A stretch of DNA of 64,000 nt from positions 10,758,741 to 10,822,740 of the forward strand of contig OZ037768.1 of the NCBI GenBank assembly GCA_964035545.1, in the 5' to 3' direction. The position numbers were made by a program, and so were the translations under genes. The DNA comes from Bugula neritina (lineage: Eukaryota; Animalia; Bryozoa). Within the stretch, counting starts at the first letter, position 1. Every line of letters starts with the position of its first letter. Below are positions 28,475-57,508 of the stretch, in pieces. The notes beneath the pieces are model-generated. The model saw only the letters and a list, made by a program, of their open reading frames with translations. It was not told the DNA's origin and ran no database searches.

Positions 28475-31400
28475 CTGTATTCCTGCTCGGTATGTAAAGA
28501 ATGGTCATTTGCTAGATTGAAATGTTCCTTCACTTCTTCTGTGGTCATTTCCCACATACCGGCTACCACTCGACAACACTCATGAAACAGTTTTGGTATA
28601 TCCAAGGAGTTAGCAGCCTACAAGGAGAAATAACAATTCATCATGTATGCATGTGGGCTATATGATTATGAGTGGGCTACAGATTGAGAGTTACCTCAAA
28701 GCCTAGCCAAACTGCACATGTCAATACACTAACTCCTAGCTAACATGAAGGCTACATTATAATATTTTGAGGCGATTTTGTTAAATGACCAAAAATCTCC
28801 AACCCTGACATTACACTACAGGAACTAAACTTTAATTAATCGAGCTTATAAATCTTACCATTTTTGATGAAAAGATAACTGAGTAGCCTATTATTACAGT
28901 TGTAAATATAATAAAATAAAGTAGCGGTGAAGTTAAACACTTACAGTGATAATCCCAAACAGGGTTTGTTGCTCTACTGACAAAAATTCCTTTATCCATA
29001 GATTGTCAGCTTCTGCTAGACTTAGTTGGGGTGGGTTGGGTTCTGCCCCTGGAGTGTCTTCAGAAAATGGACCAGCATCTTTTAACTAAAAGTCACAAAC
29101 ACAGTGTATCAAAGAATATATAGCAATGAAAACAGTTATATGCTGTATAATGTTGCAAAAAGTTTATATTGAACAAGGCGAGATAAGATGATTGGAGTAG
29201 TATAATAAGCGCCTCTACGGCTATGGAAGTAAGCATCTCGTATAGGTCAATTTGTCAACATAGTGTAGACTCTATGGCTATGGAAATTAGCATCTCGTTA
29301 ACTATGTGAGCATTGTAAGCCTTAAAGTTGACAGGTGGTAGCTATTAAATTTAGTTTACAGTGAATACACCTTTTAAGCAATTACTGGAAGGTGGATCAA
29401 TGATTAGTTTAGCTGTATATCCTTGTCCCTAACTTTATAAGTAACAAAATTTACTCACTGAGCTGAGAGTTACACAGTTTGCGAGTCAAAATTTGTGTGT
29501 TTTTTGGTATAAAACATCACCATTCTAAAATTTACATCATTCATCGTTATATGTTTTGAGCGCAAAGGTTAATCAATGATGACAGAAGTAGAAAATTTTC
29601 CCTTGCAAAATAAAGATCCTATATTTAATGAACAAGATGCAAATGTGGCTGAAGACGAGTTAGATGTGGCGAGAAAAGTTGTACATAATCGGAATACACT
29701 CATTAATAAAGTTTCGACCAGGAGAGATAATGCAAAGAATGACTGGAGCTTTTCAGAACTAAAAAAGAAACCTATCGCTATTATCCTGGTAGCACTATTT
29801 TTATCAATGAATGTAATCAACATAGTTATGAGCGGTAATGGTAGCTTTTCTGGAAAGATGTTTTCAACTAATTATACTTTAGACAGAATGTTCAATAACT
29901 GCACAAAACACTTCGAAATGACTGACAATTTAAAACTAGCTGTTTGCAACACTAAAGTTCACGGGGATTTTATAACTATACAATATTTTTTCTTGAATGG
30001 TAATATGTCTCAGAGTGATGCGTCTTCACCATCTAAGCTGTTAACAGTTTTGACTAAACACATTTTAGAAAATAATTATTACGGAATGTAATGTTTTTCT
30101 GTATACAACTCATAGTTTATAATAAAATGTTAAATGGAAACAAAAAACATGTCTTATGGTCCAACTCTATTTGCAACTCCATTTTTAAACTTATAACTTG
30201 ACACAATTTTTCTGAAACTCAAAAAGCAGAAAAAAGATAATTAACCTTATGCTAATGATGTCTGAAACTTTGACAAAGTAAAAATTAATATTAGCAAAAA
30301 TTAGGAGGTGACACAGCGGTTTCCAATTTAATCAATGGGAAGTAAAACATAATAAAATCTTGTATAACCTACGTAAACTGATATAATATCGCCCAGTAAT
30401 TAAACCCTAGATGGGTGGATTGTATTTAAAATTTAACAACTCAATTCCTCATTATAATTAAAAATCGGAAAATTTTTCAGCTAAGATGGATGACACGGCA
30501 ATTTCTAATTTACGGATGGGAAGTGTCCTAGTTGAAGTTTAAATACATATGCAACTGATAAAACACGTATCACCTACGTAAACTGATATAATATTGCTTA
30601 CGTGAGTAAACCTTAAACCGGCAGATTACAATTAAAATGTTACCACCCAACTCCCTATAATAAAAAAAGGAAAACTTTTAGTTAAGATAAATTTCATTTA
30701 CGTAGGAATAAATTACAAAATCTCAGTATATAAAAGCCTCGAAAAACTTCTATGTTTCATCGCATCTCAAACCATACAGCAAACACCATGGGAGATTTAG
30801 TAAAGAAGTTAGAAGCTGAACTACTACAACTCAGAAGAAAAGTGGGAGAAACGAGTACTAGTTCCAGTACAGTTGAACCACTCAAAGCCTTAAAGCCTTC
30901 TAAAAGAAAAAAGTAAGTAATAATATATTTCTTTTGGATATCTCACCACTAACCTGTTAGAATATTATTAACATGAGAATGATTTTAGTTTACTATAGTG
31001 TTAGCTTTCTATAACTATGCTAACCACTAACCTGTTAGAATATTATTAACACGAGAATGATTTTAGTTTACTATAGTGTTAGCTTTCTATAATTATGCTA
31101 ACCTTTTTTATCAGCTAAAAGTAGCATCTTATTCATTACAATAATATTATTTTAGTGAATCTAAGTCTGGTGAATCAAAGCGTAAGAAACCTGCATCAAT
31201 TCCAAAGGTGTATGAGTCGACTAGCGAGCCGTCTGTATCTACCAGCGTGAGGTTAGTAGAATATCGTAAATCATCAATCATCTGTAAGACTCACAATTAA
31301 TTATATTCACTTGACAAACTATAAACAAATAAACAGACGTTTGTCGTGTAATAAATTATATTATGTAGAATAAGTTACATATTATAAAACATAGTAATAG

Positions 31401-34400
31401 ATCCCTCTTTTTTAGCGCTACTACCACTCCTTCCTCTATGACATCGTCTATTCCATCCGCTAGTTCCTCTACTGGTACAACTGTTACTACAAGTGATGAT
31501 GCTGCCACTGCTGCTACCGCTGTCGATCAGAGCAAAACACCTGCAAATGAAGAAGGTTGCTATCTAGTCCCTCTTAATTATGATCAATCACAATTATCCT
31601 ACTACACTGACAATGACAAGATAATACCTACATTTAATCATTCGCGTAAATTCTTTTTTAAATCCGATGAATTTATAGGTGAATTAAAAATATACGAGTC
31701 GAAAATTCCCAACAGTGGGCCATGTTTATATGTGAAAAAATCTAAAAATCTAGAACTTTTTAAAACAAAGCTAGCTAAAATTTTTGAAAAAAAAGTTAAG
31801 TTTTACGGTAAAAGTGAAAATGCATCATTGCTCGGATGTTATGTTGACGTGGTCAGAAACATGGAAGACGAAATTTGCGTAAATGCTGTAGTCAATGGAC
31901 AACCTGTGTTATTAAATGTACAACAACTGTATGGAAAAGTGGGAAAATTAACATGCGTGTTGAGAAGCGGTGTGATAAAAAAAGTAAACGAGGACTTATT
32001 TTGGTCACTAAATGTGACCGAAATCAAACTAGACGACATATCACCGGATGAATATAATTATTTTAAACGATCGGAGCCGATCATAAAATTTTTAGGCTGA
32101 CGGACTGACACTGACTCTCTAATATAAATATGTTGTATTTTTTGGTGATGGGGAAATATTTTATGTTGGTGAATGGAATACTTTTATGCGTATTATTGTT
32201 TAAAATATTGTTACAATATATCTCAATATATAATCAGTGAAAAGAAATTCAATACTATCTCTGCCACTATTAAACACAAAATGTATAAAAGCGAGTTGTT
32301 AATACACAACATCTATATATTACAATCTATCTCAATATATACTCAATGAAAAGAAATTCAATACTAGCACTGCTACTATTGAATGTATAAAAGCGAGTTG
32401 TTAATATACAACATCTATATATTACAATCTATCTCAATATATACTCAGTGAAAAGAAATTCAATACTAGCACCGCTACTATTGAATGTATAAAAGCGAGT
32501 TAATATACAACATCTATATATTACAATCTATCTCAATATATACTCAATGAAAAGAAATTCAATACTATCTCTGCCACTATTAAACCTAAAATGTATAAAA
32601 ACGAGTTGTTAATATACAATATCTATATACTTCAATCTATCTCAATATATACTCGATGAAAAGAAATTCAATACTATCTCTGCCACTATTAAACCCAAAA
32701 TGTATAAAAGCGAGTTGTTAATATACAATATCTATATACTTCAATCTATTTCAATATATACTCGATGAAAAGAAATTCAATACTATCTCTGCCACTATTA
32801 AACACAAAATGTATAAAAGCGAGTTGTTAATATACAATATCTATATACTTCAATCTATCTCAATATATACTCGATGAAAAGAAATTCAATACTATCTCTG
32901 CCACTATTAAACACAAAATGTATAAAAGCGAGTTGTTAATATACAATATCTATATACTTCAATCTATTTCAATCTATTTCAATATATCTTAATATATACT
33001 CGATGAAAAGAAATTCAATACTATCTCTGCCACTATTAAACACAAAATGTATAAAAGCGAGTTGTTAATATACAATATCTATATACTTCAATCTATTTCA
33101 ATATATACTCGATGAAAAGAAACTCAATACTATCTCTGCCACTATTAAACACAAAATGTATAAAAGCGAGTTGTTAATATACAATATCTATATACTTCAA
33201 TCTATTTCAATCTATTTCAATATATCTTAATATATACTCGATGAAAAAGTTTAAAACACTGTTCTTATGGCTCTGATGAAGAGTGTAGTAAACCTGACAA
33301 TTCTATCTGATAATGCCACTATATGTCAAGTATATACATTTATGAGTGTATCTATTTACATATTATTAAACAATATCTCTATTTGAAGTAATTTTCTTTG
33401 ATCCTTGCATCTCTATCAAGGTGGTTAAAAGAATAATTTATACTTCAATGTTTTAGAGAAATTCAAGTGCCACATATGTGGAAAAAGTTATAACCACAGG
33501 CAAAGTTTGAGCAGGCACCAAAGTATCCACAAAAAAAGATGTGATCAATGTAAACGGTTGTATGCACCGTGGAAAACAAATCACCGATGTCATAACACGG
33601 TAATTTATCTACTGAGTGATACGATACGATATGAATATGATCATACTACATATACTATCACAACAAATTCAAAGCTAACTAATCAATGGTAATCTTGGTA
33701 AATTTTAGAATACAAACTCAAACGGAGCAGAGAGAAGGTCAAACAAAAAGCCTCAAACCACATTCAGTGATGATATTGAACGCTATCAGTACAAAGGCAT
33801 TTACGAAGAGGAAACAAATGCTCTATTGAGAAAAAACTGGTCAGCTATAAGAACGTACAACAGAAAAGGGAAATATTGTAGTGTCTACAATCGATTGATA
33901 AAAGACAATGACATTATTTCAACTTTAAACAATAAAGAAGTGAAATTAATATTTCATGAACAAACATTGAAATTCAAATGCAATGCTTCAATTGGTTTTA
34001 TCCTTTTGAATCAAAATGAGGAAAAGTTGAGATACTTTCATGCTAGCATGGGTGTTGATAAACTTTTTGCCTCGCCAAAGCTAATAGAGAATTTACAAGA
34101 TTTCAATCAACTTGTGAAAGAAATGACAGAAAAAGATTTCATAGAGAAAGCAACTCAAAACAGGCCAAACACTTCGTGGAGTGTTCACAAAATAACAAAT
34201 ATTACATTGTATGTATTTCCTATACCAGATCACAATATCGGATGCCCTATATCTCCATCTGAGAGAACAAAACAAAACAAAGCAATTATAACAGCTAGCA
34301 CTGATACAACTGGAAGACTGTATGAAGACAACTTATGTCTATTTAGAGCTCTAGCTTACTCAAAGGGACAGCAGAGTACTTTAACACAGTCTACGAAACA

Positions 34401-37400
34401 TTATTATGAAATGTACTTGAATGGTATGAACAAACTGAATCAAGATTTTACAGGAGTGCCTTTATCAGACCTCAGATTTGCCGAGCGAATACTGAACTGT
34501 TCTATTAATGTGTACACCTTGGAATACAATACAGGGAAAGAAGCTAATGCAAAGCTTATGTACAGAGCCACTACCAATTACAAACACAAACTAAACTTAC
34601 ATCTAGAGGAATCACATTTCAGTTGGATAAAAAACATCTCTCTTTACACAAAGTCATACAAATGTACATTTTGTAACAAGCTAATGAAATCAGTCAGAGC
34701 GTTGAATAGTCATAACACAGTATGTACAGCTGGTGAAACAAACCTTGTGTATCCCTACGGGGTGTATACTCCGTCTCGATCTATTTTCGAAAAGCTTGAA
34801 GATGTTCACATCACAGTTGATGAAAATAGACGACATTATCCGTACTTTGCTGTGTTTGATTGCGAAACGATGATGTCTTCGATTGGTTTACCTGCAAACA
34901 CAAATACAATACACTATGAAAACAAACACAAGTTGGCTTGTATAAGTTTATGCTCAAACGTATCTGGCTATACACAACCAGTGAATTTCATGAATTCTGG
35001 AAATGAATACGAGCTGGTTGTGAAAATGATGGATTTCCTTACAAAGCTGTCTGAAGTATGCTACCAGAGATTGCTTGTTAGATACAATGATGTGTTTAAA
35101 CAACTACGTGAAAAAGCTGACGAGTGTATCAAGAAAGAAATTGAAGCTAGTTGTAATAACAAAGCAGTGAACAATGTCAAAAAAAAGTTTGAATCACTAG
35201 AAAGTCAACTCCACTGTTATTTGAAAGACTTGATGGTCTTGTCTTTCAACGGCGCTGTCTATGACATTCCATTGATTCGACAACATATGCTACGGTATCT
35301 ATTAGAACAAAACCAAAAAGTTTTGTTTACAGCTAAAAAAGGAAACAAATACATGTGTATTCAAACGGAAAAATTAAGATTTCTAGACGTGCTCAATTTC
35401 CTTGCTCCAGGGTTTTCGTACTCTGATTATCTAAAAGCTATGGGAGTTGAAGGGGAAAAATTCTTCTGGCCTTATGACATATTTACATCTATGGAAGTGC
35501 TAGACAGAACAGAGTTCCCCGCTCATGAAGAGTTTTACAGTAAACTGAAAGGTAAAAACATATCCGTTCAGGAGTATGAAAAATGCAAAGAAATATGGGT
35601 ACAGAAAGGAATGAAAACATTAAAAGACTTACTAGAGTACTACAATAACGAAGATGTCAGACACTTTATACCAGCATTAGAAAAGCAAAATGAATTTTAC
35701 AAATCATGCAATCTTGATTTCAAGTCAGCTATATCTATACCAGGACTAGCGATTCAATATTTATTTCAATTAAAAGACCCAGAAGCGCCAATCTTTCTGT
35801 TTGGTGATAAGTTTAAAGACATTCACCAACTTATCAAATCAAACATTAGAGGTGGTTTATCAATTGTGTTCTCAAGGTATCAAGAAGCTGGCGCAACAAA
35901 GATTAAACCTGAATACTTTGGTGATCAAGCCAAAACTACGCAAACATGTGTAGGGTATGATGCGACAAGTTTATATTTGAGTTGCCTAGTGAAAGATATG
36001 CCCACAGGAGCCTTTGTAAGAAGGCGGAGAGAAAATAGCTTTAGAATAGAAAAAAGCTACTATTCGGGTGAAAAAGCTACAGTATGGCTAAAATACATGT
36101 CAAAGCTGCTCGGAGTCAAAATTCAACACAAGTTTAATAGCACCGAACGTCGAATAGGTGGACGAAACATACCAGTCGATGGATACGCTCTGGCGAGTGA
36201 TGGTAGTGAACTAGTGTTCAACTACTCAGGATGCTGGTTTCACGGACATCTATGCGACTATTGTCCAAATGGAAAGTTTAATAACAAAGAAAAAGATTTA
36301 CAAAATCAAATAGACACATACAATACGCTGAAATATTTCCAAGATTTGGGTTACAGAGTCTACCATACTTGGGAGTGTGAATTTGATAATTTGAAAAAGG
36401 AAAACAGTGATGTCAGTGAGTTCTGCTCAAATCTGGACTTCATTGTTGATTCAAGATACGTAATATCAGAAAGCAAAATACTAGAAGAAATCAAAAATGG
36501 TTCAATGTTTGGAATGGCTGAAGTTGATATAGAAACACCTGAAGACTTGAAAACAATATTTGCTGAATATCAACCTATACAAAAAAATGTACTGATATCA
36601 AGGGATGACATAGGCCCACACATGAAACAATTTGCAGAACGAAATGGTTTACTAAAAAAGCCATCACGTACTTTAATCAGTAGCTATTTCGGGAACAAAA
36701 TCCTTTTGTCCACCCCGCTACTGCAATGGTACCTACAACACGGCTTAGTGGTTACAAAAGTATATCAAGTAATTCAATACAAGCCATCAAAATGCTTCAA
36801 GCTGTTTGGTGAAAAGGTAATGGAGGCTAGGAGAGCTGGTGACCTCGATTCCTCAAAGAAGATTATATCGGATTCATGCAAACTAATAGGTATTTAGTAA
36901 ATATTGACATGTTTAAACATAGCACTTATTCAATGGTTATTAATATGCAAATCACTTAAGCATCTAGCAAGAGCGATAACTTTTGCATTGAATAATTACT
37001 CAATATATTTCAAAATAATCCACTTCGCTATATTTCAGGAAACTCTGCGTATGGCCGAACACTAGTCAACCTGGAGAGTCACACTGATATCATATATTGT
37101 GATGCTGAAGAGACAAACATCTCAAGACTGGTAAACAATCCTAGATTTAACAGCTTACAAGAAATTGATTCTCAACTAGTTGAAATTGAATCACGAAAAG
37201 CTAAGATTAGACTCAATGTACCAGTACAAATTGGCTTTCAAGTATTAGAGTATGCAAAGCTAGCCATGTTGAAATTCTATTACGATTTCTTGTTAAAGTT
37301 TCTATCTCTAGACAGTTTTGCTTTGATTCAAATGGACACTGACTCAATGTATTTAGCTCTAAGTGAAAAAACTTTGTACCTAGCGGTCAAAAGTGATATG

Positions 37401-40400
37401 AGAAATGAATTTGAACAAGAACACACTAGTTGGATGTGTAGAGAATATTGCGATGAACACAAGTCACAATATTTTCAATGTATGTTTAACGGGCAAACCT
37501 GGAATCCATTAGACTGTTGTAAAGCTAGTGCCAAGTTCCACAAAAGATCTTTGGGGTTGTTTCACTGCGAAAATGTCTCCCGAGGTGTTGTAGCGCTTTG
37601 CTCCAAATGTTACTATTGTTTCGGAGAAGAACCTAAATACAGTTCAAAAGGTGTCAGTAAATTGCACAACAACTATACCGAAAAAGATTACTTCGATGTA
37701 TTGATAAATCAGAAAATTGCTTACGGTACGAACAAGGGTTTTCGAGTAAAAGGTGAAGAAATATTCACGTACGTTCAAAATCGAAAAGCTTTAAATTATT
37801 TTTACGGAAAGAGAATTGTGTCACAAGATCACGTGACAACCAAACCTACTTTACTGTAAAAAAACTGTGTTTAGTTAGCGCGTTCAGTTAATTGGTATTT
37901 CACTGTCCGGTTGATAGGTCGCATCAATCAATATTCTACGATGGAAAATTTATACCTATTACAGAAAAACGCTTATAATTATATATGGTACAAGCTTTCG
38001 AAAATGAGTAGACAACATTACGTTAACTATTGTATAACGCAAACCGTTTTGGACATGTACAATAAACATCAAAATTGGAGTGAGGAAGAAATAAATGAAT
38101 TGGTCGAACTAGCCGAGGATATGTACGAGACTAACGGTTACGTTCAGTTTTGTAAAGTGGCAAAAGATTTGACTGATCCAAATATCTCAGCTATTCGCTT
38201 AGAAACAATATTTTTCTTGTGCGTGCAAATTTGCAAAATGTATATCGAGGCTGGAGAACACTTCGCAGTGAAATATTTTATTCAACAGATCCAATGGAAC
38301 TTGGGAATAGCTCTCGAGAAACAAAACAATGTACAATAGTTTATTTTGTATATAATTGTGTATATTTGCCTAAACTTGCCTAAACATGCCTAAACATGCC
38401 TGAACTTGCCTAAACATGCCTGAACTTGCCTAAATCTATTTATACTTTTTTATGCCTATTAATATTTTTGTACATTACTTGATACAATTATTTGGGAATA
38501 AACTCTCGGAATATACAGTTAACATCATGAGCTTACCTTTCTACCATACATTTTCAGCGATTGTAGCTGGTCCTTCAAGGGCTGGTAAAACTCAGTGGGT
38601 AAGGAAATTGATTACCAACAGTCATACAATGATATCACCTCCACCTGAAAAAATAATATATTGTTATAGTGAGTGGCAGCCACTGTTTAGTTCATACAAC
38701 AACGTTGAGTTTCATCAAGGTGTTATCGATATACAAGAATTAAACAAAAATATAAAAAACTTGATAATATTTGATGATTTAATGAGTGAAATAGATCAGA
38801 ATATTGAAAACATATTTACTAAGCACAGTCACCATCGCAACATAAGCGTAATATTTATAACACAGAATCTGTTTCAAGACAACTCTCACATGAGAACAAT
38901 GTCTCGAAGCGCTTCTTATGTTGTTGTATTTAAAAACCCTAGAGACGTGAACCAGATATCCTATTTGGCAAGACAAATGTTTCCTAAAAACCAGAGTAAT
39001 TTTGTTGTTGAAGCGTTTTGAGACGCCACTTCTGTCCCCTTTGGGTACTTGGTTATAGACTACAGGCAAGAGACAGAAGACTATTTGCGCATTAGAACAG
39101 GTGTATTTCCGGGTGAGAAAACCTATATCTATTTGTCAAACAGAAACGCTACTTCATTACAAAGAAATGCAGCTTGAAGCTAACATAAATCATGACCGCT
39201 AGAATTAAAAAACACGCCAAGACTCTAAGTTATTTAGCTGAATGTGACAAACACAACTGTAAAGCAATCATCAACGCAGCGGGTAGTGAACTGTTGAACT
39301 GTTTCTCAGATATTTGCTACAACGTATTAAAAGGCAAGGTGTCATTGTCACCTACTGAAGAAAACAACTTACGTAAATACAAAAATATTTTAAGAAAGAT
39401 TGCTGATAAAAAGAGTACACTGAAAACTAAAAAAACACTGGTACAGAAAGGAGGGTTTCTCTCGGCTCTTTTAGGACCACTAATAGGAAGTGTTCTAGCA
39501 CCACTAGCGAAAGGAATATTCAGCGGTTTTAGAAAAAGATGAATTCGCAAAGCGCTAGAAAATTCTTATTAGTGGATGCCGCGGATCTAAAACACAACTC
39601 ATTTGTAAATGCTGATGTCAGCAAAAATAATGATTATCAACAAGTCGAGAGAAACAAACCTTTGATTACTAAAGAACTATTTGCCGTAGATAAGCTAATG
39701 AGTGAAATCTTAAATGACAACACGCTATCAGAAAATGAGAAAGTAACTGCTTATAACAACGCGTTGACTAATTATCAAGAGTTAAAAACTACTACTTATA
39801 AGAAAATATCTAGCACAAGGTTGCCTACTTTATCAAAGAATAGTGAACCACAACTAAAAGAAACAGAAAGTCTTACATCTTATAACCCACTACTAGCTAT
39901 CCCTCAAAGATTTAAAACAAAGGCGAGTCAACTTTGGGATATACTGAAAAAAGATGGTAAAGTTTCTGTAAATGATGCGGGGCAGGTAACTATTAACGGC
40001 AACCAACTACGCGGAAGCAATTTATCTGATCTATTAAATCTTGCGGTTAATAGTCAACTGAAAGGTAAAACATTGGAAGGGTGGAAAGAATTTAGACAAG
40101 TATTAATTGATTACAATGTACCCAAACTACTCATTAATCAAAACGTTATCGAAGAGAAATCTAAAAGTAGAAGAGAGTCTAGTAAATTGTCATCAGGCGA
40201 GTGGGATCCATACGATGGCAAGGCGAAAACGAAAAAAGCAAAATCCAGACTCCAGCTATACTGATAAACTAATTCGAGACACCTATTTCAATATTTCTAA
40301 ACCAGCCGGATTTGGTAGTAAAGCAAAGTTATACAAATCATTAAAAGGCAAAGTAAGCAAGGGTGCAATTGATAGATGGCTTGAAAAAACAGACAGCTAT

Positions 40401-43400
40401 AACCTACATAAACCTTTGCGAAAAAACTTTCCCAGACGAAAGTATATTGTATCAGGTATTAATGCCATGTGGCAAATTGATTTAACAGATCTCCAACAGT
40501 TTTCATCCGAAAATAATGGATTCAAGTATATACTATTAAGCATTGACACATTCAGTCGTAAAGCCTACGGTGTACCACTCAAAACTAAATCTGGTTTAGA
40601 AGTGAGTAGAGCTATGAGGGAGATTATAGAAAACGAAAACAACAACACTCCACCAGAAATGATTTTATCAGATAGAGGCAAAGAATTCTTTAACCCTCAA
40701 TTTAAAGCATTAATGAAAGAATATAACATAAACCACTTTTCATCCAACAATCAAGAAATTAAAGCATCCATGGTTGAAAGACTGCAAAGAACACTAAAGG
40801 CTAAATTGTTTAAATATTTTACTCATCAAAACAGTCACAGATATCTTGACATTCTCAATGATCTAATATCATCATACAATAACTCGAAACACTCGGCTCA
40901 TAACTCAACACCTAATGATGTGACAGTTAACAATCAAGAAGAAATTTGGCATAGACTATACACAGATAGTCAGAGTGGTCAAACTAACAAACTAAAATAC
41001 AATGTTGGAGATCTCGTTAGAATATCGAAATATAGTACAGTATTTAAAAAAGGATACCTTCCTTCTTGGAGCGAAGAAATCTTTACCATAGCGAAAATCC
41101 ACACTACTAATCCTCCAGTGTATTCTCTCGCGGATGACAGCGGTGATCAGCTAGAAGGAACATGGTATGAACCGGAATTACAGAAAGTAAACACCAAGAG
41201 CAACACCTATAAAATAGAGTCAATTGTTGGTCAGCGTACTGTGAATGGTAAAAAACAATTTCTTGTAAGGTGGGCTGGATATCCGCCAAGTTTTGACTCG
41301 TATGTTGATAAAAGAGATGTAATTTTTAACTATAAGAATTAGATAATAAACTTATATGTTGTCACTCTTACAAAGATGCGCGTTGTTTTACCTAGTAATG
41401 CTTCGTTGAAGCATTTTCCAAAAAATAGTCTTTCAGTATACACAGTTCAATTGCCTCAAAGTTTAGATTTTACGGATGGCTCTTACGAAATCGGATTGAG
41501 TGAGATACAATTTTATAAATCATGGTTCAATGTGAAACAGTGCAGCATAACCTTAAAAGTAAATGAAGCTGAAGAAACAGTGCATCTAGATGACGGTTAC
41601 TACAAATCAGATAAAAAGCTAATACAATCTATCAATCAAGCAATAAATGACCAGTGTTTAAATCTGAAAGTAAAATTTAATTTCTATTACAACGATGTCA
41701 ATAAGAATTTTTATGTCATTGCTGAAAATGTTAGCGGTTGCTCTATAGACATCACATACTCACCATCTCTTGAGAAAATACTTAATGTACAGGAAGAAAA
41801 AATGGAGATAAAATCAATGACCGATGGCACAATTTTGGTCAAGTACAATACTCCAATAAGATTACATACAATATTTAACCTGATGGTGTATACAGATGTA
41901 GCAGAATCTAGTATTGTTGGAGATACTCAGGCTCAACTACTAAGAGTTGTAGGAGTCGAGGATGGTCATTGGAGGTTGCAGTCCACTAACTTTAACAATG
42001 TACAGTACTGCAAAATAAATAAAACGCATGTTTCGAGTGTATCAATTTATATATACACGGATTACGGTGAAAGAGTACCATTCACGCATGGACGTACAGT
42101 GGTAACGGTAGATATTCGAAAAGTTAAACCTATAAACCTAATATGAGAATAATTCCATTCGATTGTGATGCCGCATCAAATAGCTATAGACAGTTATATG
42201 AACAATCAGGAAATGGAATGATTCCAATATTTTCAGGAGAAAAATATCAAACAGGATACGGTTTAGGGAGCATATTTGGTAACATACTCAAAGCAGCATT
42301 GCCTGTTGTAAAACAAGGTGTAAAAAGTTTAGGAAAGACAGCAATAAATACTGGTCTAAACATTGCCAGAGATAGTTTATCCGGTAAACCATTCAGAGAG
42401 TCAATTAAAGATAACGTCAACAGCGCGGCTGGAGAGGTTATTACTAAAGGTATTACATACGTCACCAACAGAAATCGAAATAAAAAAAGGAAGCGTCAGA
42501 CTAACAGAGTTACTTCTTCCAAGTCTTCAAAGGTGAAAAGACGTAGGGTTACTAAACGCGATATCTTTTCATAGAATACTATACTATGAGTTTCATAATG
42601 GAACATAGCTGCCTCGCTGGCAAACCCGAATTAGATTTATTTTCTACACTACCTACTCAAGCATCAATCGAAGAAGGATATCACGTAGAACATATGCCCA
42701 CAACCTCATTGAATGATGAGGGACCTATAAAGTTCTCAATCTCTGGTGATTCGAACAACTACCTTGACCTCAGTTCAAGCTATCTATTATTAGAGGTGAA
42801 AATAACAAAAGCTGACGGTACGGATCTCGATGCTCAAGGTGATGCGGCTCCTATAAACCTTTTGGGTCACACATTATTTCAACAAGTAGAAATTATGCTA
42901 AATGATGTAGTTATTTCCAACGCTTCTAATCTCTACCACTACAGAGCTCTTATAGAAACTTTACTAAGTTACTCCGATGAAGCTAAAAAGTCACAACTAT
43001 CAATGTCACTCTACTCAAAGGATACACCCGGAAAAATGGATCACATTGGTGGTGATAATGAAGGCTTGGAAGCTAGAAGGCGAATTACGGGGCAGAGTAA
43101 AACTGTGCAATTAATTGTTAGACCGCACGCTGACATATTCTTTCAAAGGCGATTCATTTTAAACGGAGTAGACATGAAATTAAAATTTGTGAGGAATCAC
43201 AACAGCTTAGTGCTAATGGCTGGTGAAAACTCTACTTGCAAACTAAAAATCCTAAACGCATCTTTTTTCCTTCGAAAAGTTAAAATCAATAGCGGAATAC
43301 AATTAAAGCACATTGAAAATTTAGACAAGAAACTATTACCAGCCGTTTATCCTATCAGAAGAGTTGATATGAAGTCATTCAATATCGCATTGGGTTCACT

Positions 43401-46028
43401 GTCTTGGAACGAAGAAAATTTATTTCACGGTATTCTGCCTAAGAGGATAGTTATAGGTATTGTAAACGCTGGTGCATTCGAAGGCGCGTACAATTTGAAT
43501 CCTTTCAACTTTCAGCACAAACATTTAAAATATACAAACCTAGTCGTTGACGGGAAACAAGTACCTCAGAAGGCATTGGTTTCAGACTACACAAATCATA
43601 ATACTCTAAGAAACTATTTTACGCTCTTGGAATCAACGGGAAAGGTGTTCAACAATGGCGGAATAGATATAGATAGAGAGGAATACGAGAAAGGTTACAG
43701 TCTAATGGCCTTTGATTTAACTCCTGACCTAGATTTGAGCACTTGCTTTCATTTGATGAAGCGAGGAACAATAAGATTAGAGCTAAAGTTTTCTCAGGCT
43801 CTTGACACACCCGTTAATGTGATTGTCTACTCCGAATTTGACTCTGGTATAAAAATTGATAAGAATAGAGCGGTACTTACAAATTTCTACGCGTGATGAA
43901 TTCTAAAGAAATATATTCCATTCTTGAGAACGATGAGTGGGTGAAAAAGATGAACTTCATCGGTGTATTTCCAATCGATAGAATACCTAGTAGTAGTTTG
44001 ACGGATTATCCTTGCTGTGGAGTTGTAAACACTAAACCTCACAATCATCCGGGAGAGCACTGGGTGATGTTTCTAAAGACAGAAAATAACACAGGAGTTT
44101 ATTTCGACTCTTTTGGAAGTGGTCTTTACAACATGCCAGAGGTTGCGGCTATATTTGATTCAGTAGACTCTTGGCAATTTAGTAGCACTCAGCTACAATC
44201 TGTATTTTCTACAGTTTGCGGACAATACTGTATTTTTGTGTTAACGCATTTAGCCAGAGGTTTCTCACTAGAACACATTATATCTTTAATAAATGATTGT
44301 TGTGATACATACGCGAATGATGCTTTTATATTTAATTACATTAATCAAAAATATAGTAATTTTTTAAATAAAGAACTAGAAATTGTAGACTTACCTTTTA
44401 TTTTTGAACAAGCTTCTTATCCTGTTAAAATTTAAAGCTGTAATATTCTATTATGACATTTTTTCAAGAAAATAAACTCATGGTGAAAAGAAATCTCTTT
44501 CTGGTTATTGAATATTATACGGAGTGTAGAATTTACCAAAGTGACAACAGTGATATAACGAGGGTAACTAATCATAGATCAATGTTTTAGTACGTGAGAT
44601 TCTGACTACGTAGTTAGTTAAAAGGTGTATTCACCGTAAGCTAAATTTAATAGCTACCACCTGTCAACTTTAAGGCTTACAATGCTAATTCATCAATAAC
44701 AAATACAATGCTCACATAGTTAACGAGATGCTAATTTCCATAGCCATAGAGTCTACACTATGTTGACAAATTGGCCGATACGAGATGCTTACTTCCATAG
44801 CCGTAGAGGCGCTTATTATACTACTGATTGGATATAAGCAGCTAGTTTATTGGTAAACACTGATAAAATTTTAACATTATGAAGATTGCCAGGGAATTAT
44901 TGTCACTGTTATATGTTTGCTAAGACCAGGCCAAAATCTACATAAAAATTAGTGCTTACCACCAAGGATGTTAAGATGGAAATTAGCTGTTAAAAAGTAG
45001 TGAAATATAAATAATTACTTTGTGCCTTTTATTTAATTTAATTTTTGCTTCATAAATTTTTGGCTTACATACAACTTTTTCTTTTCAGAATTTCAAACTT
45101 TCTGTTCTGAATACTTGTTGAGCTGCGACTAAATATTTAATAATGAAAATAATAGCAAAACTGACTAATTAGTTGAAATGTTTGTTACCTGTTCACTACT
45201 CATACCTAGTAGTCACTGTCATGCTGTTTCTGATAACTTAGGCTACCAGAAACAGGGGTTTATGCAATGCCTGCTTTATATGCTACCTAACACTAAATAT
45301 TGAGTGACTTTCGTAATACTGCTATTGCACCCTTGTGTTACGTCACAGTAGCAATCCTCCTTAAAAAGAGATGCTATATCTAGGCTAAAATATTTTGATA
45401 ACTTCACCAAAGCAAAAATACCAATTCTAAATTTTCCAAAATACATTTCATAGCCAAACCAAATGCTAGACTTAATCCATACTATATAACATAATAAAGG
45501 CTACAAACATAAATCAGAGCATTTAATAATTTCACAGAAGTAACATTGCAAAATCTAAATTTGTCTAAAACCAATGCTTAGAGATATCCAAACCTCACAC
45601 CTAATTCACACTGTAAGTATAAGAGAATGGAAGCTACAAGTATGAATAATCTTAAGCATCAATAACTACACTACACATTCAATTTTAGTCAATTTAAACA
45701 CTTAAACTGAGTATGTACTCAAAATTTGTAGGACAAAAGTGGTTGGCAGAATGTAGGAATTGTAAAGAAACTTAGATAAAATATATTTAATATAGCTCGT
45801 TGTATGGTTGTATGTGAATGAAAGACAAATCTTCACCTTATAATGGGTGCACCATTGGATGACTTTCTTTAGTATGGCAGCATCTACATTAGGCAAGATT
45901 ATGGGGTCCTCATACTCGTCAACTCCAAGAAGTTCAAACATGTCTCGTAGAAAGATAGACTGCTTCATTATCTCTCTTTCTACTTTGAATACTTCCCCAT
46001 CACAGCTTTCCAAGGCAATGATCGACAT
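28475..46028 (-). CDS. Skp1 paralog C, with the Polinton inside intron 1; last exon unresolved
   Basis: Exon 1 46028-45837 (...[20 protein letters not shown]|GT), exon 2 29085-28945 (...[19 protein letters not shown]|GT), exon 3 28617-28475 ([21 protein letters not shown]...). Same intron positions as canonical Skp1; no other exon 2 seen in 44832-45836 and no exon 1 in 29086-29189. Confidence 0.75.
29196..29377 (+). repeat. Polinton left TIR (182 bp)
   Basis: Reverse complement of 44618-44825 apart from 4 substitutions and a 26-bp indel. Confidence 0.95.
29576..30091 (+). CDS. Polinton accessory protein: TM helix plus possible PC4-like domain
   Basis: 171-aa ORF with hydrophobic [20 protein letters not shown] after KKK; C-terminal [13 protein letters not shown]...FITIQYF loosely fits the PC4 strand pattern; AATAAA at 30121. 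Confidence 0.6.
   Translation: MMTEVENFPLQNKDPIFNEQDANVAEDELDVARKVVHNRNTLINKVSTRRDNAKNDWSFSELKKKPIAIILVALFLSMNVINIVMSGNGSFSGKMFSTNYTLDRMFNNCTKHFEMTDNLKLAVCNTKVHGDFITIQYFFLNGNMSQSDASSPSKLLTVLTKHILENNYYGM
30308..30736 (+). promoter_or_regulatory. Duplicated upstream module with CCTACGTAAA motifs and TATA box
   Basis: Two diverged ~200-bp copies share acctacgtaaactgatataatat (30367, 30572); inverted tttacgtagg at ~30697; tatataaaag at ~30727, about 60 bp before ATG 30788. Confidence 0.55.
30788..32100 (+). CDS. Polinton spliced gene (~301 aa), putative OB-fold ssDNA-binding protein
   Basis: Exons 30788-30912, 31156-31251, 31416-32100 with GT-AG phase-2 introns; good Kozak context (accATGg); NLS-like KRK/KRKK, Ser/Thr linker, beta-rich C-terminal domain. 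Gene model is strong; function is inferred. Confidence 0.7.
30945..31103. repeat. 78-bp tandem duplication inside a viral intron
   Basis: accactaacctgttagaatattattaac... begins at 30945 and 31023; copies nearly identical. Confidence 0.9.
32211..33247 (+). repeat. Tandem array of ~9 units (consensus 109 bp), each with TATAAAA
   Basis: Anchor tgaaaa recurs at periods 109,102,99,109,109,109,129,109,129. Confidence 0.95.
33457..37859 (+). CDS. Protein-primed family B DNA polymerase (pPolB), ~1380 aa, spliced; start codon unresolved
   Basis: Exons 33457-33599 (C2H2 finger), 33709-36889, 37039-37859. OTU-like DNLCLF...SHFSW; ExoI VFDCET, ExoII FNGAVYD, ExoIII YNNEDV; motif A YDATSLY, motif B KLIG|NSAYG, motif C MDTDS; VSR-like insert (VDG...GCWFHG...WECEF). 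Confidence 0.93.
37941..38339 (+). CDS. Polinton accessory protein, Bcl-2-like (132 aa)
   Basis: Helical ORF; [29 protein letters not shown] follows the BH1-region spacing F..V..EL.....NWGRI..FF.F....C. Confidence 0.55.
   Translation: MENLYLLQKNAYNYIWYKLSKMSRQHYVNYCITQTVLDMYNKHQNWSEEEINELVELAEDMYETNGYVQFCKVAKDLTDPNISAIRLETIFFLCVQICKMYIEAGEHFAVKYFIQQIQWNLGIALEKQNNVQ
38367..38434. repeat. 10-bp minisatellite TGCCT(A/G)AAC(A/T), about 7 copies
   Basis: Direct inspection; lies just upstream of the ATPase/structural gene block. Confidence 0.9.
38527..39177 (+). pseudogene. A32/FtsK-like packaging ATPase with one in-frame TGA (39019-39021)
   Basis: Walker A GPSRAGKT, Walker [27 protein letters not shown]. 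After the TGA the same frame continues with the family-typical [13 protein letters not shown]...RIRTGVFP to TGA at 39175-39177. Confidence 0.88.
39192..39542 (+). CDS. Conserved Polinton small basic virion protein with QxGG site and amphipathic tail
   Basis: 116 aa; [12 protein letters not shown]...[12 protein letters not shown]...[14 protein letters not shown]. Confidence 0.75.
   Translation: MTARIKKHAKTLSYLAECDKHNCKAIINAAGSELLNCFSDICYNVLKGKVSLSPTEENNLRKYKNILRKIADKKSTLKTKKTLVQKGGFLSALLGPLIGSVLAPLAKGIFSGFRKR
39539..40264 (+). CDS. Conserved uncharacterised Polinton protein (241 aa)
   Basis: [20 protein letters not shown]...L..Y and KA..L...LK...N..G....NG..L.GSN..DL patterns seen in ORFs preceding Polinton integrases; ATGA overlap with the upstream gene. 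Confidence 0.75.
   Translation: MNSQSARKFLLVDAADLKHNSFVNADVSKNNDYQQVERNKPLITKELFAVDKLMSEILNDNTLSENEKVTAYNNALTNYQELKTTTYKKISSTRLPTLSKNSEPQLKETESLTSYNPLLAIPQRFKTKASQLWDILKKDGKVSVNDAGQVTINGNQLRGSNLSDLLNLAVNSQLKGKTLEGWKEFRQVLIDYNVPKLLINQNVIEEKSKSRRESSKLSSGEWDPYDGKAKTKKAKSRLQLY
40215..41342 (+). CDS. Retroviral-like (rve) integrase with C-terminal chromodomain
   Basis: DDE triad WQIDL / SDRGKEF / [10 protein letters not shown]; [12 protein letters not shown]; chromodomain [10 protein letters not shown]...[16 protein letters not shown]. Confidence 0.95.
   Translation: MARRKRKKQNPDSSYTDKLIRDTYFNISKPAGFGSKAKLYKSLKGKVSKGAIDRWLEKTDSYNLHKPLRKNFPRRKYIVSGINAMWQIDLTDLQQFSSENNGFKYILLSIDTFSRKAYGVPLKTKSGLEVSRAMREIIENENNNTPPEMILSDRGKEFFNPQFKALMKEYNINHFSSNNQEIKASMVERLQRTLKAKLFKYFTHQNSHRYLDILNDLISSYNNSKHSAHNSTPNDVTVNNQEEIWHRLYTDSQSGQTNKLKYNVGDLVRISKYSTVFKKGYLPSWSEEIFTIAKIHTTNPPVYSLADDSGDQLEGTWYEPELQKVNTKSNTYKIESIVGQRTVNGKKQFLVRWAGYPPSFDSYVDKRDVIFNYKN
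41376..42146 (+). CDS. Minor capsid (penton) protein
   Basis: N-terminal LPSNAS...[25 protein letters not shown]...LLRVV; canonical position in the block. Confidence 0.85.
   Translation: MRVVLPSNASLKHFPKNSLSVYTVQLPQSLDFTDGSYEIGLSEIQFYKSWFNVKQCSITLKVNEAEETVHLDDGYYKSDKKLIQSINQAINDQCLNLKVKFNFYYNDVNKNFYVIAENVSGCSIDITYSPSLEKILNVQEEKMEIKSMTDGTILVKYNTPIRLHTIFNLMVYTDVAESSIVGDTQAQLLRVVGVEDGHWRLQSTNFNNVQYCKINKTHVSSVSIYIYTDYGERVPFTHGRTVVTVDIRKVKPINLI
42143..42574 (+). CDS. Core (pVII-like) basic protein
   Basis: QSGNG and [10 protein letters not shown] candidate protease sites, amphipathic middle, Arg/Lys-rich tail ending RDIFS. Confidence 0.8.
   Translation: MRIIPFDCDAASNSYRQLYEQSGNGMIPIFSGEKYQTGYGLGSIFGNILKAALPVVKQGVKSLGKTAINTGLNIARDSLSGKPFRESIKDNVNSAAGEVITKGITYVTNRNRNKKRKRQTNRVTSSKSSKVKRRRVTKRDIFS
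42586..43896 (+). CDS. Double jelly-roll major capsid protein
   Basis: 436 aa; [42 protein letters not shown] motifs. Confidence 0.92.
   Translation: MSFIMEHSCLAGKPELDLFSTLPTQASIEEGYHVEHMPTTSLNDEGPIKFSISGDSNNYLDLSSSYLLLEVKITKADGTDLDAQGDAAPINLLGHTLFQQVEIMLNDVVISNASNLYHYRALIETLLSYSDEAKKSQLSMSLYSKDTPGKMDHIGGDNEGLEARRRITGQSKTVQLIVRPHADIFFQRRFILNGVDMKLKFVRNHNSLVLMAGENSTCKLKILNASFFLRKVKINSGIQLKHIENLDKKLLPAVYPIRRVDMKSFNIALGSLSWNEENLFHGILPKRIVIGIVNAGAFEGAYNLNPFNFQHKHLKYTNLVVDGKQVPQKALVSDYTNHNTLRNYFTLLESTGKVFNNGGIDIDREEYEKGYSLMAFDLTPDLDLSTCFHLMKRGTIRLELKFSQALDTPVNVIVYSEFDSGIKIDKNRAVLTNFYA
43896..44435 (+). CDS. Adenain-like cysteine maturation protease
   Basis: GEHWV (His), YFDSFG (Asp), LQS (Gln), VCGQYC (Cys); ATG overlaps the MCP stop (TGATG); AATAAA at 44471. 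Confidence 0.92.
   Translation: MNSKEIYSILENDEWVKKMNFIGVFPIDRIPSSSLTDYPCCGVVNTKPHNHPGEHWVMFLKTENNTGVYFDSFGSGLYNMPEVAAIFDSVDSWQFSSTQLQSVFSTVCGQYCIFVLTHLARGFSLEHIISLINDCCDTYANDAFIFNYINQKYSNFLNKELEIVDLPFIFEQASYPVKI
44618..44825 (-). repeat. Polinton right TIR (208 bp)
   Basis: Inverted copy of 29196-29377. Confidence 0.95.
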
Positions 46029-47594: not shown

Positions 47595-49317
47595 TCATAA
47601 TTGGAGAGATGATAGGGAAGGCTTTACACTACCACACCATTCATTTTCTCTTTCAATCTAAAAGATATACATGTATACAATGTTTATTGTTATCAGTATT
47701 ATGTAAAGCACACACAATTTATTATGTACCCTAATTGCCACAACAACACTACAAATGCTTCATTGTTTTGCAAGGGTCTAGGGAGTGCTCATATTGCTGT
47801 GAAATTGAGCTTTGAAAATAAATTGATACCTAAAATATTAAGTGGATTATAGACTAAAGAAAGCTAAAAGTATATTTAGATAATTGTTATGGTATTAACT
47901 ATGGCATAATGGAATATTATACCCGATATTCTTCAGCAGGAGTGAAGTCATTTTTGATATTAAAAGTTTTCCTTATCTCCTCAGGAGTTTTCCCTTCAAT
48001 CATATTGGCTACAGTCTTACAACCAATAGTCAATAAACTTTGTATTTCCAAATAGTTGGCTGCCTGCAACAAAGATACCAGTTATTATCTAAACATCTCT
48101 TTGCATCCATTTACATATCTATATTAGGAACAAATACATTTGCATAGCAATCTTTTGGCAAAATCTTTGTTTTTTACGAAATTATTTGATCTTTAATAAA
48201 CCAAGACTCAAAGACTATTACATCTTTTGATATACATGTTACAAAGCACGTAGCCTGCAGTTATTATTGGAATTCATTTCTTAAGAATTTATAGGAATCT
48301 GGTAAATAGTAACTAAATTGAAAAAGACGGATACTGTATACCCCAGCTCAAGCTTAACTTTGCAGAGTGGCCCTGACTGCTGAAATATTTCATTTCAGTA
48401 ACTCTGTTTCAATAGTTTTCACACTCCTGAACTCACTATAGAAGGTTCTTACCAAGATCAAATCAAAGAGAGTTCCCTGGTCTAGGTCAAGGAACTGCTT
48501 GTCCCATGAGCTGATATCATCTGTTGTCCTTGATCTGATGTCACACTCTGAAAACTGGTCATCCTAAAGCAAATGAAGGATTGTTTATAACAACTTTTGC
48601 AAGCATGTCATTGGTTGCATTTATACTAACTGAAACTCAGCACTGTTTTCAGGAGAGGTACTATAAAATACAACTTAAGGCTTATAGCCATTTGGTACAG
48701 GGTGCTATGTTAGGTTTATACAAACTATTTTGTAGCATATGTAAATATTTAAGCAAAAAGAGAAAAATATAATGTAGTTCATATGATATTGTATAGGAAA
48801 ATTGGTTTGAGTGATTATGCTAGAACACAGTGGTGGATAAAGATAGCAAATTAGGCAAAAAACATCTTTTTGTTGTTTACATCTAATTAATATTTACAAC
48901 TTAATATGCAATTTAAACTATATTATACAGCAGTAATAATGCTTTCTGGTGCAGATAAAAATGCATTTAAATTTTAGATGTAAAAATATTCTAAATTACA
49001 GAGCTGGATATTTTACGGTTTCAACTTAACTCTTGTTCCACATTGAAAAAAGATACTAAATAAGTGACTAATATAATATATTCAATTATTTACTGAAAGT
49101 AAGATCTGATTTCACTCACCTTGTGATAAGTGCACCATTGAATGACTTTATCTAAAGTAGCAGCATCTACATTAGGCAAGATTAAAGGATCATCATCTCC
49201 GTCATCACCCTCTCCAAGAAGTTCAAACATGTTCTTTAGAAACATAGACTGCTTGAGTATCTCCACATCAACCTCAAACACTTTCCCATCTAAACTCTGT
49301 AACTTTATATTTGACAT
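47595..49317 (-). CDS. Skp1 paralog B, intact (170 aa)
   Basis: Exons 49317-49120, 48563-48453, 48063-47923, 47657-47595; ...WCTYHK|DD...[18 protein letters not shown]|AANYLEI...|[20 protein letters not shown]. Confidence 0.9.

Positions 49318-54898: not shown

Positions 54899-57508
<2,610 letters not shown>

What the first reader, a model, noticed from the sequence alone, without database searches (positions are those of the whole stretch)
28475..46028. Provirus sits antisense inside intron 1 of a Skp1 paralog, separating its exons by 16.7 kb
Seen: Skp1 exon 1 lies right of the element and exons 2-3 lie left of it; the insertion is ~110 bp from the exon-2 acceptor. Removing the element and one TSD leaves a 1,115-bp intron, close to the 1,190-bp intron 1 of canonical Skp1. 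All viral genes are on the opposite strand. Inferred: the host gene may still splice around the virus, and its pre-mRNA would be a full-length antisense transcript of the viral genome, a possible piRNA/siRNA source.
Basis: partly seen in the sequence, partly recalled or inferred. Interest (0 to 1): 0.75.

Follow-up and report, generated by a model that had tools for sequence, protein, structure and literature searches.

The report
Polinton inside a spare Skp1 intron
A 15.6-kb virus-like Polinton transposon sits backwards in an intron of one of four neighbouring Skp1 gene copies of what is likely a bryozoan, an insertion-free version of the site also exists, and the insertion likely just weakens a spare gene, with nothing yet showing that it makes antiviral small RNAs.

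Summary
A 15,630-bp Polinton/Maverick (AGTAGT-ended inverted repeats, perfect 6-bp target duplication, polymerase, integrase, ATPase, protease, both capsid proteins) lies antisense in the first coding intron of a Skp1 paralog, 110 bp from the exon-2 acceptor. One public run holds the empty site, so the insertion is polymorphic and likely young. The host gene is one of four tandem Skp1 copies. It diverges fast, has no recognisable last exon and varies in frame at its 3′ end, so it is likely dispensable. The piRNA idea is untested and pulls against itself: clean splicing would leave the antisense RNA as a nuclear intron, whereas published genic piRNA traps are exonic or 3′-UTR insertions. No RNA run was available. 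The closest precedent is the Polinton remnant inside C. elegans eri-6/7, which lowers downstream exon expression. Side finding: a predicted 149-nt intron splits polymerase motif B, although core genes are described as intronless; this scan has seen intron-split Polinton polymerases in other genomes. Verdict: a new member of a known kind, modest interest, with a useful filled/empty allele pair.

The parts
45837..46028 (-). Skp1-C first coding exon (64 codons, POZ domain), donor GTGAAG
   Evidence: 67% identical to exon 1 of copies A and B
44826..45836 (-). 5′ part of the interrupted intron (1,011 bp, includes the right TSD); its first ~160 nt are homologous to the canonical copy's intron
44826..44831 (+). 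right target-site duplication GATTGG
29196..44825 (+). Polinton/Maverick element, 15,630 bp
   Evidence: skipped exactly by the empty-site contig
29196..29385 (+). left terminal inverted repeat, begins AGTAGT
   Evidence: 111 of the first 113 nt identical to the right TIR
44610..44825 (-). right terminal inverted repeat, 26 nt longer internally
29190..29195 (+). left target-site duplication GATTGG
29086..29195 (-). 3′ part of the interrupted intron (110 bp) with a branch-like TTGAT at 29112 and acceptor TTTTAG
28945..29085 (-). Skp1-C exon 2 (47 codons, open)
   Evidence: 37-41% identical to A and B
28475..28617 (-). Skp1-C exon 3 (143 nt); donor in phase 2, no exon 4 found; read-through stops 10 codons into the intron-like sequence (TAA at 28446-28444)
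   Evidence: Pfam Skp1 23.5 bits, cut-off 22.3
29576..30091 (+). element ORF, 171 aa, no family and no relative in 81 loci
30770..32100 (+). element gene, predicted to be spliced (GT/AG-bounded pieces leading into the 220-aa ORF at 31438); no family
   Evidence: inferred from splice-like ends only
32091..33324 (.). 109-bp tandem repeat, about 10 copies
33456..33599 (+). C2H2 zinc-finger segment, predicted upstream exon of the polymerase gene
   Evidence: zf-C2H2 E 8.2e-6; a similar finger lies upstream of PolB in L004
33709..36889 (+). family-B DNA polymerase, main segment (1,060 open codons; exonuclease motifs, motif A, first half of motif B)
   Evidence: 47% identical to L002
36890..37038 (+). 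149-nt GT...AG insertion inside polymerase motif B, predicted spliceosomal intron
   Evidence: absent from 15 of 16 loci with a match to the main segment; spanned without a gap by a high-depth X1 contig
37039..37859 (+). polymerase C-terminal segment (rest of motif B, DTDS motif C)
   Evidence: 52% identical to L002
37941..38339 (+). element ORF, 132 aa, no family
38527..39177 (+). packaging ATPase, interrupted in this copy by a premature stop at 39019-39021
   Evidence: both pieces match adjacent stretches of one gene in relatives
39192..39542 (+). conserved basic ORF, 116 aa
   Evidence: matched in 38 of 81 loci
39539..40264 (+). ORF, 241 aa
   Evidence: matched in 11 of 81 loci
40116..41342 (+). 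retroviral-type integrase with C-terminal chromodomain
   Evidence: rve E 2.4e-14, Chromo E 1.8e-6
41376..42146 (+). minor capsid (penton) protein
   Evidence: model pLDDT 94.5, best match mavirus penton E 1.8e-12
42143..42574 (+). conserved basic ORF, 143 aa
   Evidence: matched in 61 of 81 loci
42586..43896 (+). double jelly-roll major capsid protein
   Evidence: pLDDT 87.8, Sputnik and PBCV-1 capsid proteins E ~2e-16
43896..44435 (+). adenain-like maturation protease
   Evidence: profile hits ASFV pS273R E 2.8e-8, adenain E 6.3e-6
54899..57508 (-). Skp1-A, canonical copy, four coding exons, intact
47595..49317 (-). Skp1-B, four coding exons, open frame
25927..26899 (-). Skp1-D, frameshift and early stop in exon 3

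Best explanation
A Polinton/Maverick of a multi-copy family sits antisense in an intron of Skp1-C, one of four tandem Skp1 copies, at a site that also exists empty; it likely arrived recently through its own integrase and likely lowers or truncates the Skp1-C message from the filled allele, which the host likely tolerates because Skp1-C is a spare, fast-changing copy. Shown: the anatomy, TSD, orientation, empty allele and four copies. Inferred: the recent date, integrase-mediated entry, reduced expression by premature polyadenylation or mis-splicing across a 15-fold longer intron, and dispensability. The antisense orientation needs no special function: one of two orientations, and the one selection is reported to spare in introns.
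For: Perfect TSD and empty allele. The four longest element contigs of X1 without a joint differ from this copy at 14 of 6,639 bases (plus one 3-nt gap), while host alleles beside the site differ at 8 of about 231 and 9 of 201. Element depth in X1 is about 1,000-1,400, against about 60-110 for single host contigs, and TIR ends run into other flanks. Skp1-C exons 2-3 have dN 0.62 against copy A, while B has 0.20. The Pfam Skp1 score is 23.5 bits against 89.6 and 76.6. No exon 4 was found in the 1.57 kb before copy D. An X1 allele carries an 11-nt duplication at the end of exon 3 that changes the frame there. The host-gene strand of the element has 7 AATAAA, the first at 44402. Precedent: C. elegans CB4856-like strains with large Polinton remnants inside eri-6-7 show raised upstream and lowered downstream exon expression (bioRxiv 10.1101/2024.01.15.575659). 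Full-length DNA elements are under-represented within 2 kb of exons in human and mouse introns (PMC3088655).
Against: There are no RNA data, so reduced expression is not shown. Donor, branch-like site and acceptor are intact. The antisense strand has fewer AATAAA than shuffles (7 vs 11.1), and the canonical intron itself holds 3 AATAAA, so hexamers alone do not end transcription here. In the same C. elegans study all 16 single-gene strains with RNA-seq spliced over 90% correctly (the passage does not say which of them carry the remnants). Exons 2-3 are still open despite long divergence, so Skp1-C has been under selection and may have its own role. The mammalian zone sizes may not carry over to this animal. 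X1 may be the window's own source.
Confidence: 0.55

Rival explanations
1. Clean splicing: the spliceosome removes the whole 16,751-nt intron, Skp1-C is made normally, and the antisense viral RNA is a short-lived nuclear intron with no effect on either party.
For: Splice signals are intact and the insertion leaves 104-110 nt before the acceptor. All viral genes and their own splice and poly(A) signals face the other way: 21 AATAAA on the viral strand, 7 on the host strand. Over 90% correct splicing in single-gene eri-6-7 strains.
Against: The other coding introns of the four Skp1 copies are 211-1,190 nt. The exon-2 acceptor scored lowest of 10 in one crude model and 165-371 of 873 AGs in the element scored as high, but 12-27 of 66 AGs in the empty intron did too, so these models are weak.
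Confidence: 0.2
2. Genic piRNA trap: Skp1-C transcription runs into the element and, where splicing fails, ends inside it, so part of the element (most likely its right arm, not the full length) becomes an antisense 3′ UTR that is exported and cut into piRNAs silencing the other copies.
For: The whole host-gene strand is antisense to every viral gene. Candidate poly(A) hexamers lie at 44402, 44103 and 43424. The family is multi-copy and likely young. Any expressed host locus can act as a trap when the insertion is exonic (PMC13226689).
Against: The insertion is intronic, not exonic. Antisense U content is 37.0%, against 34.7-36.9% for host DNA on that strand, so it is not distinctive. Germline expression of Skp1-C is unknown. 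There is no sign that the filled allele has spread: the one run has the empty site. Two AATAAA in the host intron (45033, 44851) could end the RNA before the element.
Confidence: 0.1
3. Skp1-C was already silent or recently pseudogenised, so the insertion fell into dead DNA and has no transcriptional consequence.
For: No exon 4, an out-of-phase exon-3 donor, a frame-changing allele in X1, and neighbour D is frameshifted. No protein matching exon 2 was found (0 of 28 candidates), although a spliced-looking 94% match to the nearby receptor gene is on record. The best exon-3 matches are ordinary Skp1 proteins at 38-42%.
Against: Exons 1-3 are open with correct phases. In a substitution-only neutral simulation 94 codons stay stop-free in 4.2% of runs at 0.3 changes per site and 1.0% at 0.5, so long-term death is unlikely; at 0.1, 24% stay open, so recent death is not excluded. 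Missing database hits are weak evidence.
Confidence: 0.15

Closest known systems
Polinton/Maverick elements of animals (proposed polintoviruses/adintoviruses; PMC8097293, bioRxiv 10.1101/2023.08.22.554363)
   Same: Size, TIRs with (AGT)2//(ACT)2 ends, 6-bp TSD, PolB, rve integrase, ATPase, protease, major and minor capsid proteins. Gene order matches relatives such as L002. The closest named capsid relatives are from the bryozoan Watersipora subatra, 62-65%.
   Different: The polymerase gene is split by predicted spliceosomal introns, one inside motif B, whereas intact vertebrate and nematode elements are described with intronless core genes. All genes lie on one strand. The ATPase of this copy has a premature stop.
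Polinton insertions in C. elegans eri-6/7, CB4856-like alleles (bioRxiv 10.1101/2024.01.15.575659)
   Same: A large polymorphic Polinton insertion between exons of a host gene, with insertion-free alleles in the species.
   Different: There the inserts are remnants, RNA-seq shows the effect, and the host gene is a small-RNA helicase. Here the element is full-length with a TSD, the host is a spare Skp1 paralog, there is no inversion, and there are no RNA data.
Genic piRNA traps: Tirant in Fs(2)Ket and cactus 3′ UTRs (PMC13226689); KoRV-A in a koala host 3′ UTR (as cited there and in PMC12958612)
   Same: An antisense insertion of a multi-copy virus-like element in a host transcription unit.
   Different: Those are retroviral, exonic or 3′-UTR insertions, exported and shown to give piRNAs. 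This one is a DNA element in an intron, with no small-RNA evidence.
Intronic transposon insertions near exons, with antisense bias (PMC3088655; PMC3517506 and PMC1794541 seen as listings only)
   Same: A full-length element close to an exon, in antisense orientation, polymorphic.
   Different: Those data are from mammals and other element classes.

Membership tests
Polinton/Maverick | terminal inverted repeats with (AGT)2//(ACT)2 ends | tested here: met
   end motif as in PMC8097293
Polinton/Maverick | 6-bp target-site duplication | tested here: met
   GATTGG on both sides, one copy at the empty site
Polinton/Maverick | family-B DNA polymerase | tested here: met
   Exonuclease and A, B, C motifs in order (motif names recalled); 47-52% identical to the single 1,340-codon frame of L002. 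Pfam and PDB sequence searches gave no polymerase hit
Polinton/Maverick | polymerase is of the protein-primed type | not tested
   Inferred from context (TIRs, relatives); terminal-protein subdomains were not examined
Polinton/Maverick | retroviral-like integrase | tested here: met
   rve E 2.4e-14
Polinton/Maverick | packaging ATPase | tested here: met
   Adeno_IVa2 E 4.6e-5, above cut-off; broken by a premature stop in this copy
Polinton/Maverick | adenovirus-like cysteine protease | tested here: met
   Profile of 41 sequences hits pS273R and adenain; the single sequence alone gave only E 0.21
Polinton/Maverick | double jelly-roll major and single jelly-roll minor capsid proteins | tested here: met
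Polinton/Maverick | intronless core genes (reported as typical, not definitional) | tested here: not met
   149-nt GT-AG insertion in PolB motif B and a predicted upstream zinc-finger exon; splicing itself not observed
Polinton/Maverick | virion formation (needed for 'provirus' in the strict sense) | not testable with these tools
   Capsid genes are open; no particle data
Genic piRNA trap (Tirant/KoRV-A type) | insertion antisense to a host transcription unit | tested here: met
Genic piRNA trap (Tirant/KoRV-A type) | insertion lies in an exon or 3′ UTR of the mature RNA | tested here: not met
   It lies between an intact donor and acceptor; an alternative end inside the element is possible but unobserved
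Genic piRNA trap (Tirant/KoRV-A type) | host gene expressed in piRNA-making tissue, and antisense piRNAs produced | not testable with these tools
   No RNA holder listed
Genic piRNA trap (Tirant/KoRV-A type) | U-rich antisense RNA | tested here: inconclusive
   37.0% U against 34.7-36.9% in host DNA on the same strand
Skp1 | N-terminal POZ domain | tested here: met
   69.7 bits, cut-off 21.9
Skp1 | C-terminal dimerisation (F-box-binding) domain | tested here: inconclusive
   23.5 bits, cut-off 22.3, profile positions 2-38 of 48; the last exon was not found

The most novel reading that the evidence does not exclude
The insertion turns a dispensable Skp1 paralog into an antisense trap for a DNA virus-like element: failed splicing makes part of the Polinton a new 3′ end of the Skp1-C RNA, which yields piRNAs that silence the family's other copies. 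The filled/empty allele pair would then be a natural experiment on how animals become immune to Polintons, and on a family whose polymerase itself depends on host splicing.
Probability: 0.08. Interest if true: 0.65.

Novelty: new member of a known kind. Interest (0 to 1): 0.3.

Why it matters
As it stands it is a well-preserved example of an ordinary event: a likely young Polinton insertion in a host intron. Its practical value is the filled/empty pair at one site, which allows a direct test of whether a small-intron animal can splice across a 15.6-kb virus-like insert and whether such inserts feed small-RNA defence. That has been shown for retroviral insertions in 3′ UTRs; my searches (top listings read) showed no case for a Polinton in an intron. 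The predicted intron inside the polymerase active-site motif matters for annotation, because ORF-based screens would score such elements as broken.

Tried and rejected
No whole genome is held for this window, so copy number and other Skp1 copies could not be counted from an assembly. No RNA holder was listed; this is no evidence on expression. No X1 contig listed bridges the filled junction; contigs drop variants, so this is not evidence of absence. A protein search with Skp1-C exon 2 found nothing (0 of 28 candidates), and exon 3 found only 2 ordinary Skp1 proteins. A viral-contig scan with the single capsid sequence confirmed 0 of 8 stretches; the alignment confirmed 1 of 68. Acceptor models trained on 9-10 host sites were too crude to predict splicing. 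dS values between the Skp1 copies are near saturation, so no dN/dS ratio is claimed. Considered and rejected: (1) Assembly artefact: the TSD is perfect and the empty site has one copy. (2) Exon 1 and exons 2-3 belonging to different genes: no other Skp1 exons lie between them and the empty contig joins the two intron halves. (3) The sequence after exon 3 being a fused exon 4: by eye it resembles the start of the canonical intron 3. (4) Exon 2 being a relic first exon because it starts TTAAAAGATG: its exon-2 frame shares FSE with copy B and the tryptophan-to-donor block with all copies. (5) The cluster lying inside the + strand exonuclease gene on the left: that gene's frame ends at 25152. A + strand gene entering from the right was not excluded. 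One motif-B pattern match (L034) was judged spurious and dropped before the count. The primary koala paper was not held. Supplements of the preprints were not seen and may show how the CB4856-like strains splice.
Full report
The observation. On the − strand, a Skp1 first coding exon lies at 46028-45837 (Pfam Skp1_POZ, E 2.4e-19). Exons 2 and 3 lie at 29085-28945 and 28617-28475, with GT/AG ends and phase-0 junctions as in the canonical gene. The intron between exons 1 and 2 is 16,751 bp. It contains an element at 29196-44825 with inverted ends beginning AGTAGT and the 6-mer GATTGG on both sides. Without the element and one TSD the intron is 1,115 bp, the canonical intron is 1,190 bp, and the element ends 110 bp from the acceptor. 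All 13 ATG ORFs of 100 aa or more inside the element are on +. Every number in the finding checks. The size match of the two introns is weak evidence, though: the same intron is 556 and 305 bp in two further copies, and only about its first 160 nt align with the canonical one.

The element. It is a Polinton/Maverick. It has an rve integrase with a chromodomain and an IVa2-like ATPase. It has a protease whose 41-sequence profile hits pS273R and adenain. Its major capsid model (pLDDT 87.8) matches Sputnik and PBCV-1 capsid proteins, and its minor capsid model (pLDDT 94.5) matches the mavirus penton. The polymerase has family-B motifs in order (motif names recalled) and is 47-52% identical to relative L002, but it drew no Pfam or PDB sequence hit. 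End motif and TSD fit the description in PMC8097293 (passages) and the core gene list fits bioRxiv 10.1101/2023.08.22.554363 (passages). This copy's ATPase has a premature stop at 39019-39021, so it likely could not package DNA by itself. The closest named relatives of the capsid and of a host receptor gene in the window are bryozoan (Watersipora subatra, Bugula neritina), so the host is likely a bryozoan. That rests on best named hits only.

Empty allele and age. One run, X1 (contigs, kind not on record, covering introns), holds the region. One contig joins 29188 to 44825 and skips 15,636 bases, which is the element plus one TSD. It is the only contig listed over 44832-45015. Element depth is about 1,000-1,400 outside the tandem repeat, against about 60-110 for single host contigs, and TIR ends continue into other flanks. 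The family is therefore multi-copy, though the tool warns that depth is no copy number. The four longest element contigs without a joint differ from this copy at 14 of 6,639 bases plus one 3-nt gap, while host alleles next to the site differ at 8 of about 231 and 9 of 201 bases. The insertion is thus polymorphic and likely much younger than the host alleles. X1 also has contigs identical to the window at 45238-45438 and 45673-45828, so it may be the window's own source and heterozygous; it is not an independent population sample. No listed contig bridges the filled junction, which proves nothing.

The host gene. The window has four tandem Skp1 copies on −: A (canonical, 57508-54899), B (49317-47595, open), C (split by the element) and D (26899-25927, frameshifted in exon 3). 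C's exon 1 is 67% identical to A and B, but its exons 2 and 3 only 37-44%. dN against A is 0.23 for exon 1 and 0.62 for exons 2-3; for B it is 0.16 and 0.20. Its Skp1 dimerisation score is 23.5 bits against 89.6 and 76.6. Its exon-3 donor is in phase 2, no exon 4 was found in the 1.57 kb before D, and read-through stops after a short tail. An X1 allele has an 11-nt duplication there that changes the tail again. Against calling it dead: exons 1-3 are open, and in a substitution-only neutral simulation 94 codons stayed stop-free in 42 of 1,000 runs at 0.3 changes per site and 10 of 1,000 at 0.5, but 239 of 1,000 at 0.1. So C was under selection for much of its history, may have lost it lately, and has two intact-looking neighbours. 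In X1, 3-4 differing contigs lie over exon 1 and its flank, which hints at further C-like copies elsewhere. No database protein matched exon 2 (0 of 28 candidates).

Can it splice round the element? The donor, a branch-like TTGAT at 29112 and the acceptor survive, and 29085 is the only in-frame, stop-free acceptor among 10 AGs tested. On the host-gene strand the element has 7 AATAAA (11.1 expected from 100 shuffles) and 11 ATTAAA; the viral strand has 21 AATAAA. The canonical intron holds 3 AATAAA, so hexamers are not decisive. Two crude acceptor models put 165 and 302-371 of 873 element AGs at or above the true acceptor, but also 12-27 of 66 AGs in the empty intron, so they decide nothing. 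The best precedent is C. elegans eri-6-7. Strains with large Polinton remnants between exons had higher upstream and lower downstream exon expression, while all 16 single-gene strains with RNA-seq spliced over 90% correctly (bioRxiv 10.1101/2024.01.15.575659; abstract and Results parts 2-3). In human and mouse, full-length DNA elements are under-represented within 2 kb of exons (PMC3088655; abstract and section 6). I therefore expect some correct splicing at reduced output. This is inference.

The piRNA idea. In Drosophila, antisense Tirant insertions in host 3′ UTRs trigger piRNAs because chimeric exonic RNA is exported; the same paper cites the koala KoRV-A case as a 3′-UTR insertion (PMC13226689; abstract, passages and Discussion; also review passages in PMC12958612). 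A companion preprint describes piRNA biogenesis as sampling of cytoplasmic RNA with a U-rich bias (10.64898/2026.02.07.704324; passages). An intron that is spliced out cleanly does not meet that condition, so 'splices round it' and 'full-length antisense piRNA source' pull against each other. A trap is more plausible if splicing fails and the RNA ends inside the right arm. Antisense U content (37.0%) is not above host background (34.7-36.9%). No RNA holder was listed, so none of this could be tested. My paper searches (listings only) showed no report of a Polinton intronic piRNA trap or of this locus.

Side finding. The polymerase is interrupted inside motif B by a 149-nt, 27%-GC GT...AG insertion at 36890-37038. 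Of 81 related loci, 16 matched the main polymerase segment. In 15 of these motif B is continuous (L002 and L003 are near-identical, and one spurious match was dropped). The sixteenth, L035, has its own 81-nt GT...AG insertion four codons further on. A 1,680-bp X1 contig at depth 1,133 spans the insertion with no difference and no joint skips it, so it is a family trait, likely a true intron. A C2H2 zinc-finger segment upstream is likely a further exon, as in L004. Core genes are described as intronless in vertebrate and nematode Mavericks (passages), and introners are reported in dinoflagellate Polinton-like elements (PMC11957031; passages). Searches (listings only) showed no paper on introns in animal Polinton polymerases. 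This scan has noted intron-split Polinton polymerases in several other genomes; those notes are unchecked and were not used as support.

Verdict. The anatomy is real and is strengthened by the empty allele. The most likely reading is an ordinary, likely young, polymorphic intronic insertion that weakens a spare Skp1 copy (0.55). Clean splicing gets 0.2, an already silent gene 0.15 and a piRNA trap 0.1. New member of a known kind; interest 0.3.

Noticed in passing
window 36890-37038; L035:3566-3646: Predicted spliceosomal intron inside polymerase motif B, shared by the high-depth X1 copies; a distant relative has a different insertion four codons away in the same motif, suggesting independent gains.
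   Followed up: partly
window 32299-37889: An X1 contig at depth 540 joins these two places and skips 5,589 bases including the whole polymerase gene: likely a multi-copy non-autonomous derivative, with 11 of 322 and 23 of 225 bases different from this copy.
   Followed up: no
window 32091-33324: About ten 109-bp tandem repeats just upstream of the polymerase gene; also 10-bp repeats at 38346-38444 and a 78-bp duplication at 30942-31097.
   Followed up: no
window 30770-32100: Predicted multi-exon orphan gene in the left arm of the element, with a Lys/Ser-rich start; no family or relative found.
   Followed up: partly
window 25927-57508: Four tandem Skp1 copies in graded decay. Copy C looks chimeric: exon 1 and the start of its intron are much closer to copy A than exons 2-3 are, which suggests gene conversion or a partial duplication.
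   Followed up: partly
window 23890-25152 (+): 3′-5′ exonuclease-domain gene tail-to-tail with Skp1-D; best solved matches are Egalitarian (E 1.2e-7) and EXD1 (E 0.009). EXD1 is recalled as a piRNA-pathway factor; orthology was not tested.
   Followed up: partly
window 45522-46030: Three to four differing X1 contigs and loose ends over Skp1-C exon 1 and its intron start hint at further C-like copies outside the window.
   Followed up: no
window 17590-20290 (+): Rhodopsin-family receptor gene; a 94%-identical protein that runs across its introns is on record (P0121), so a transcript-like assembly of this or a close species exists.
   Followed up: partly
window 49668-53172 (+): Coding-like segments between Skp1-B and Skp1-A with no Pfam family; the leftmost has stops and may be a decayed gene.
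   Followed up: no
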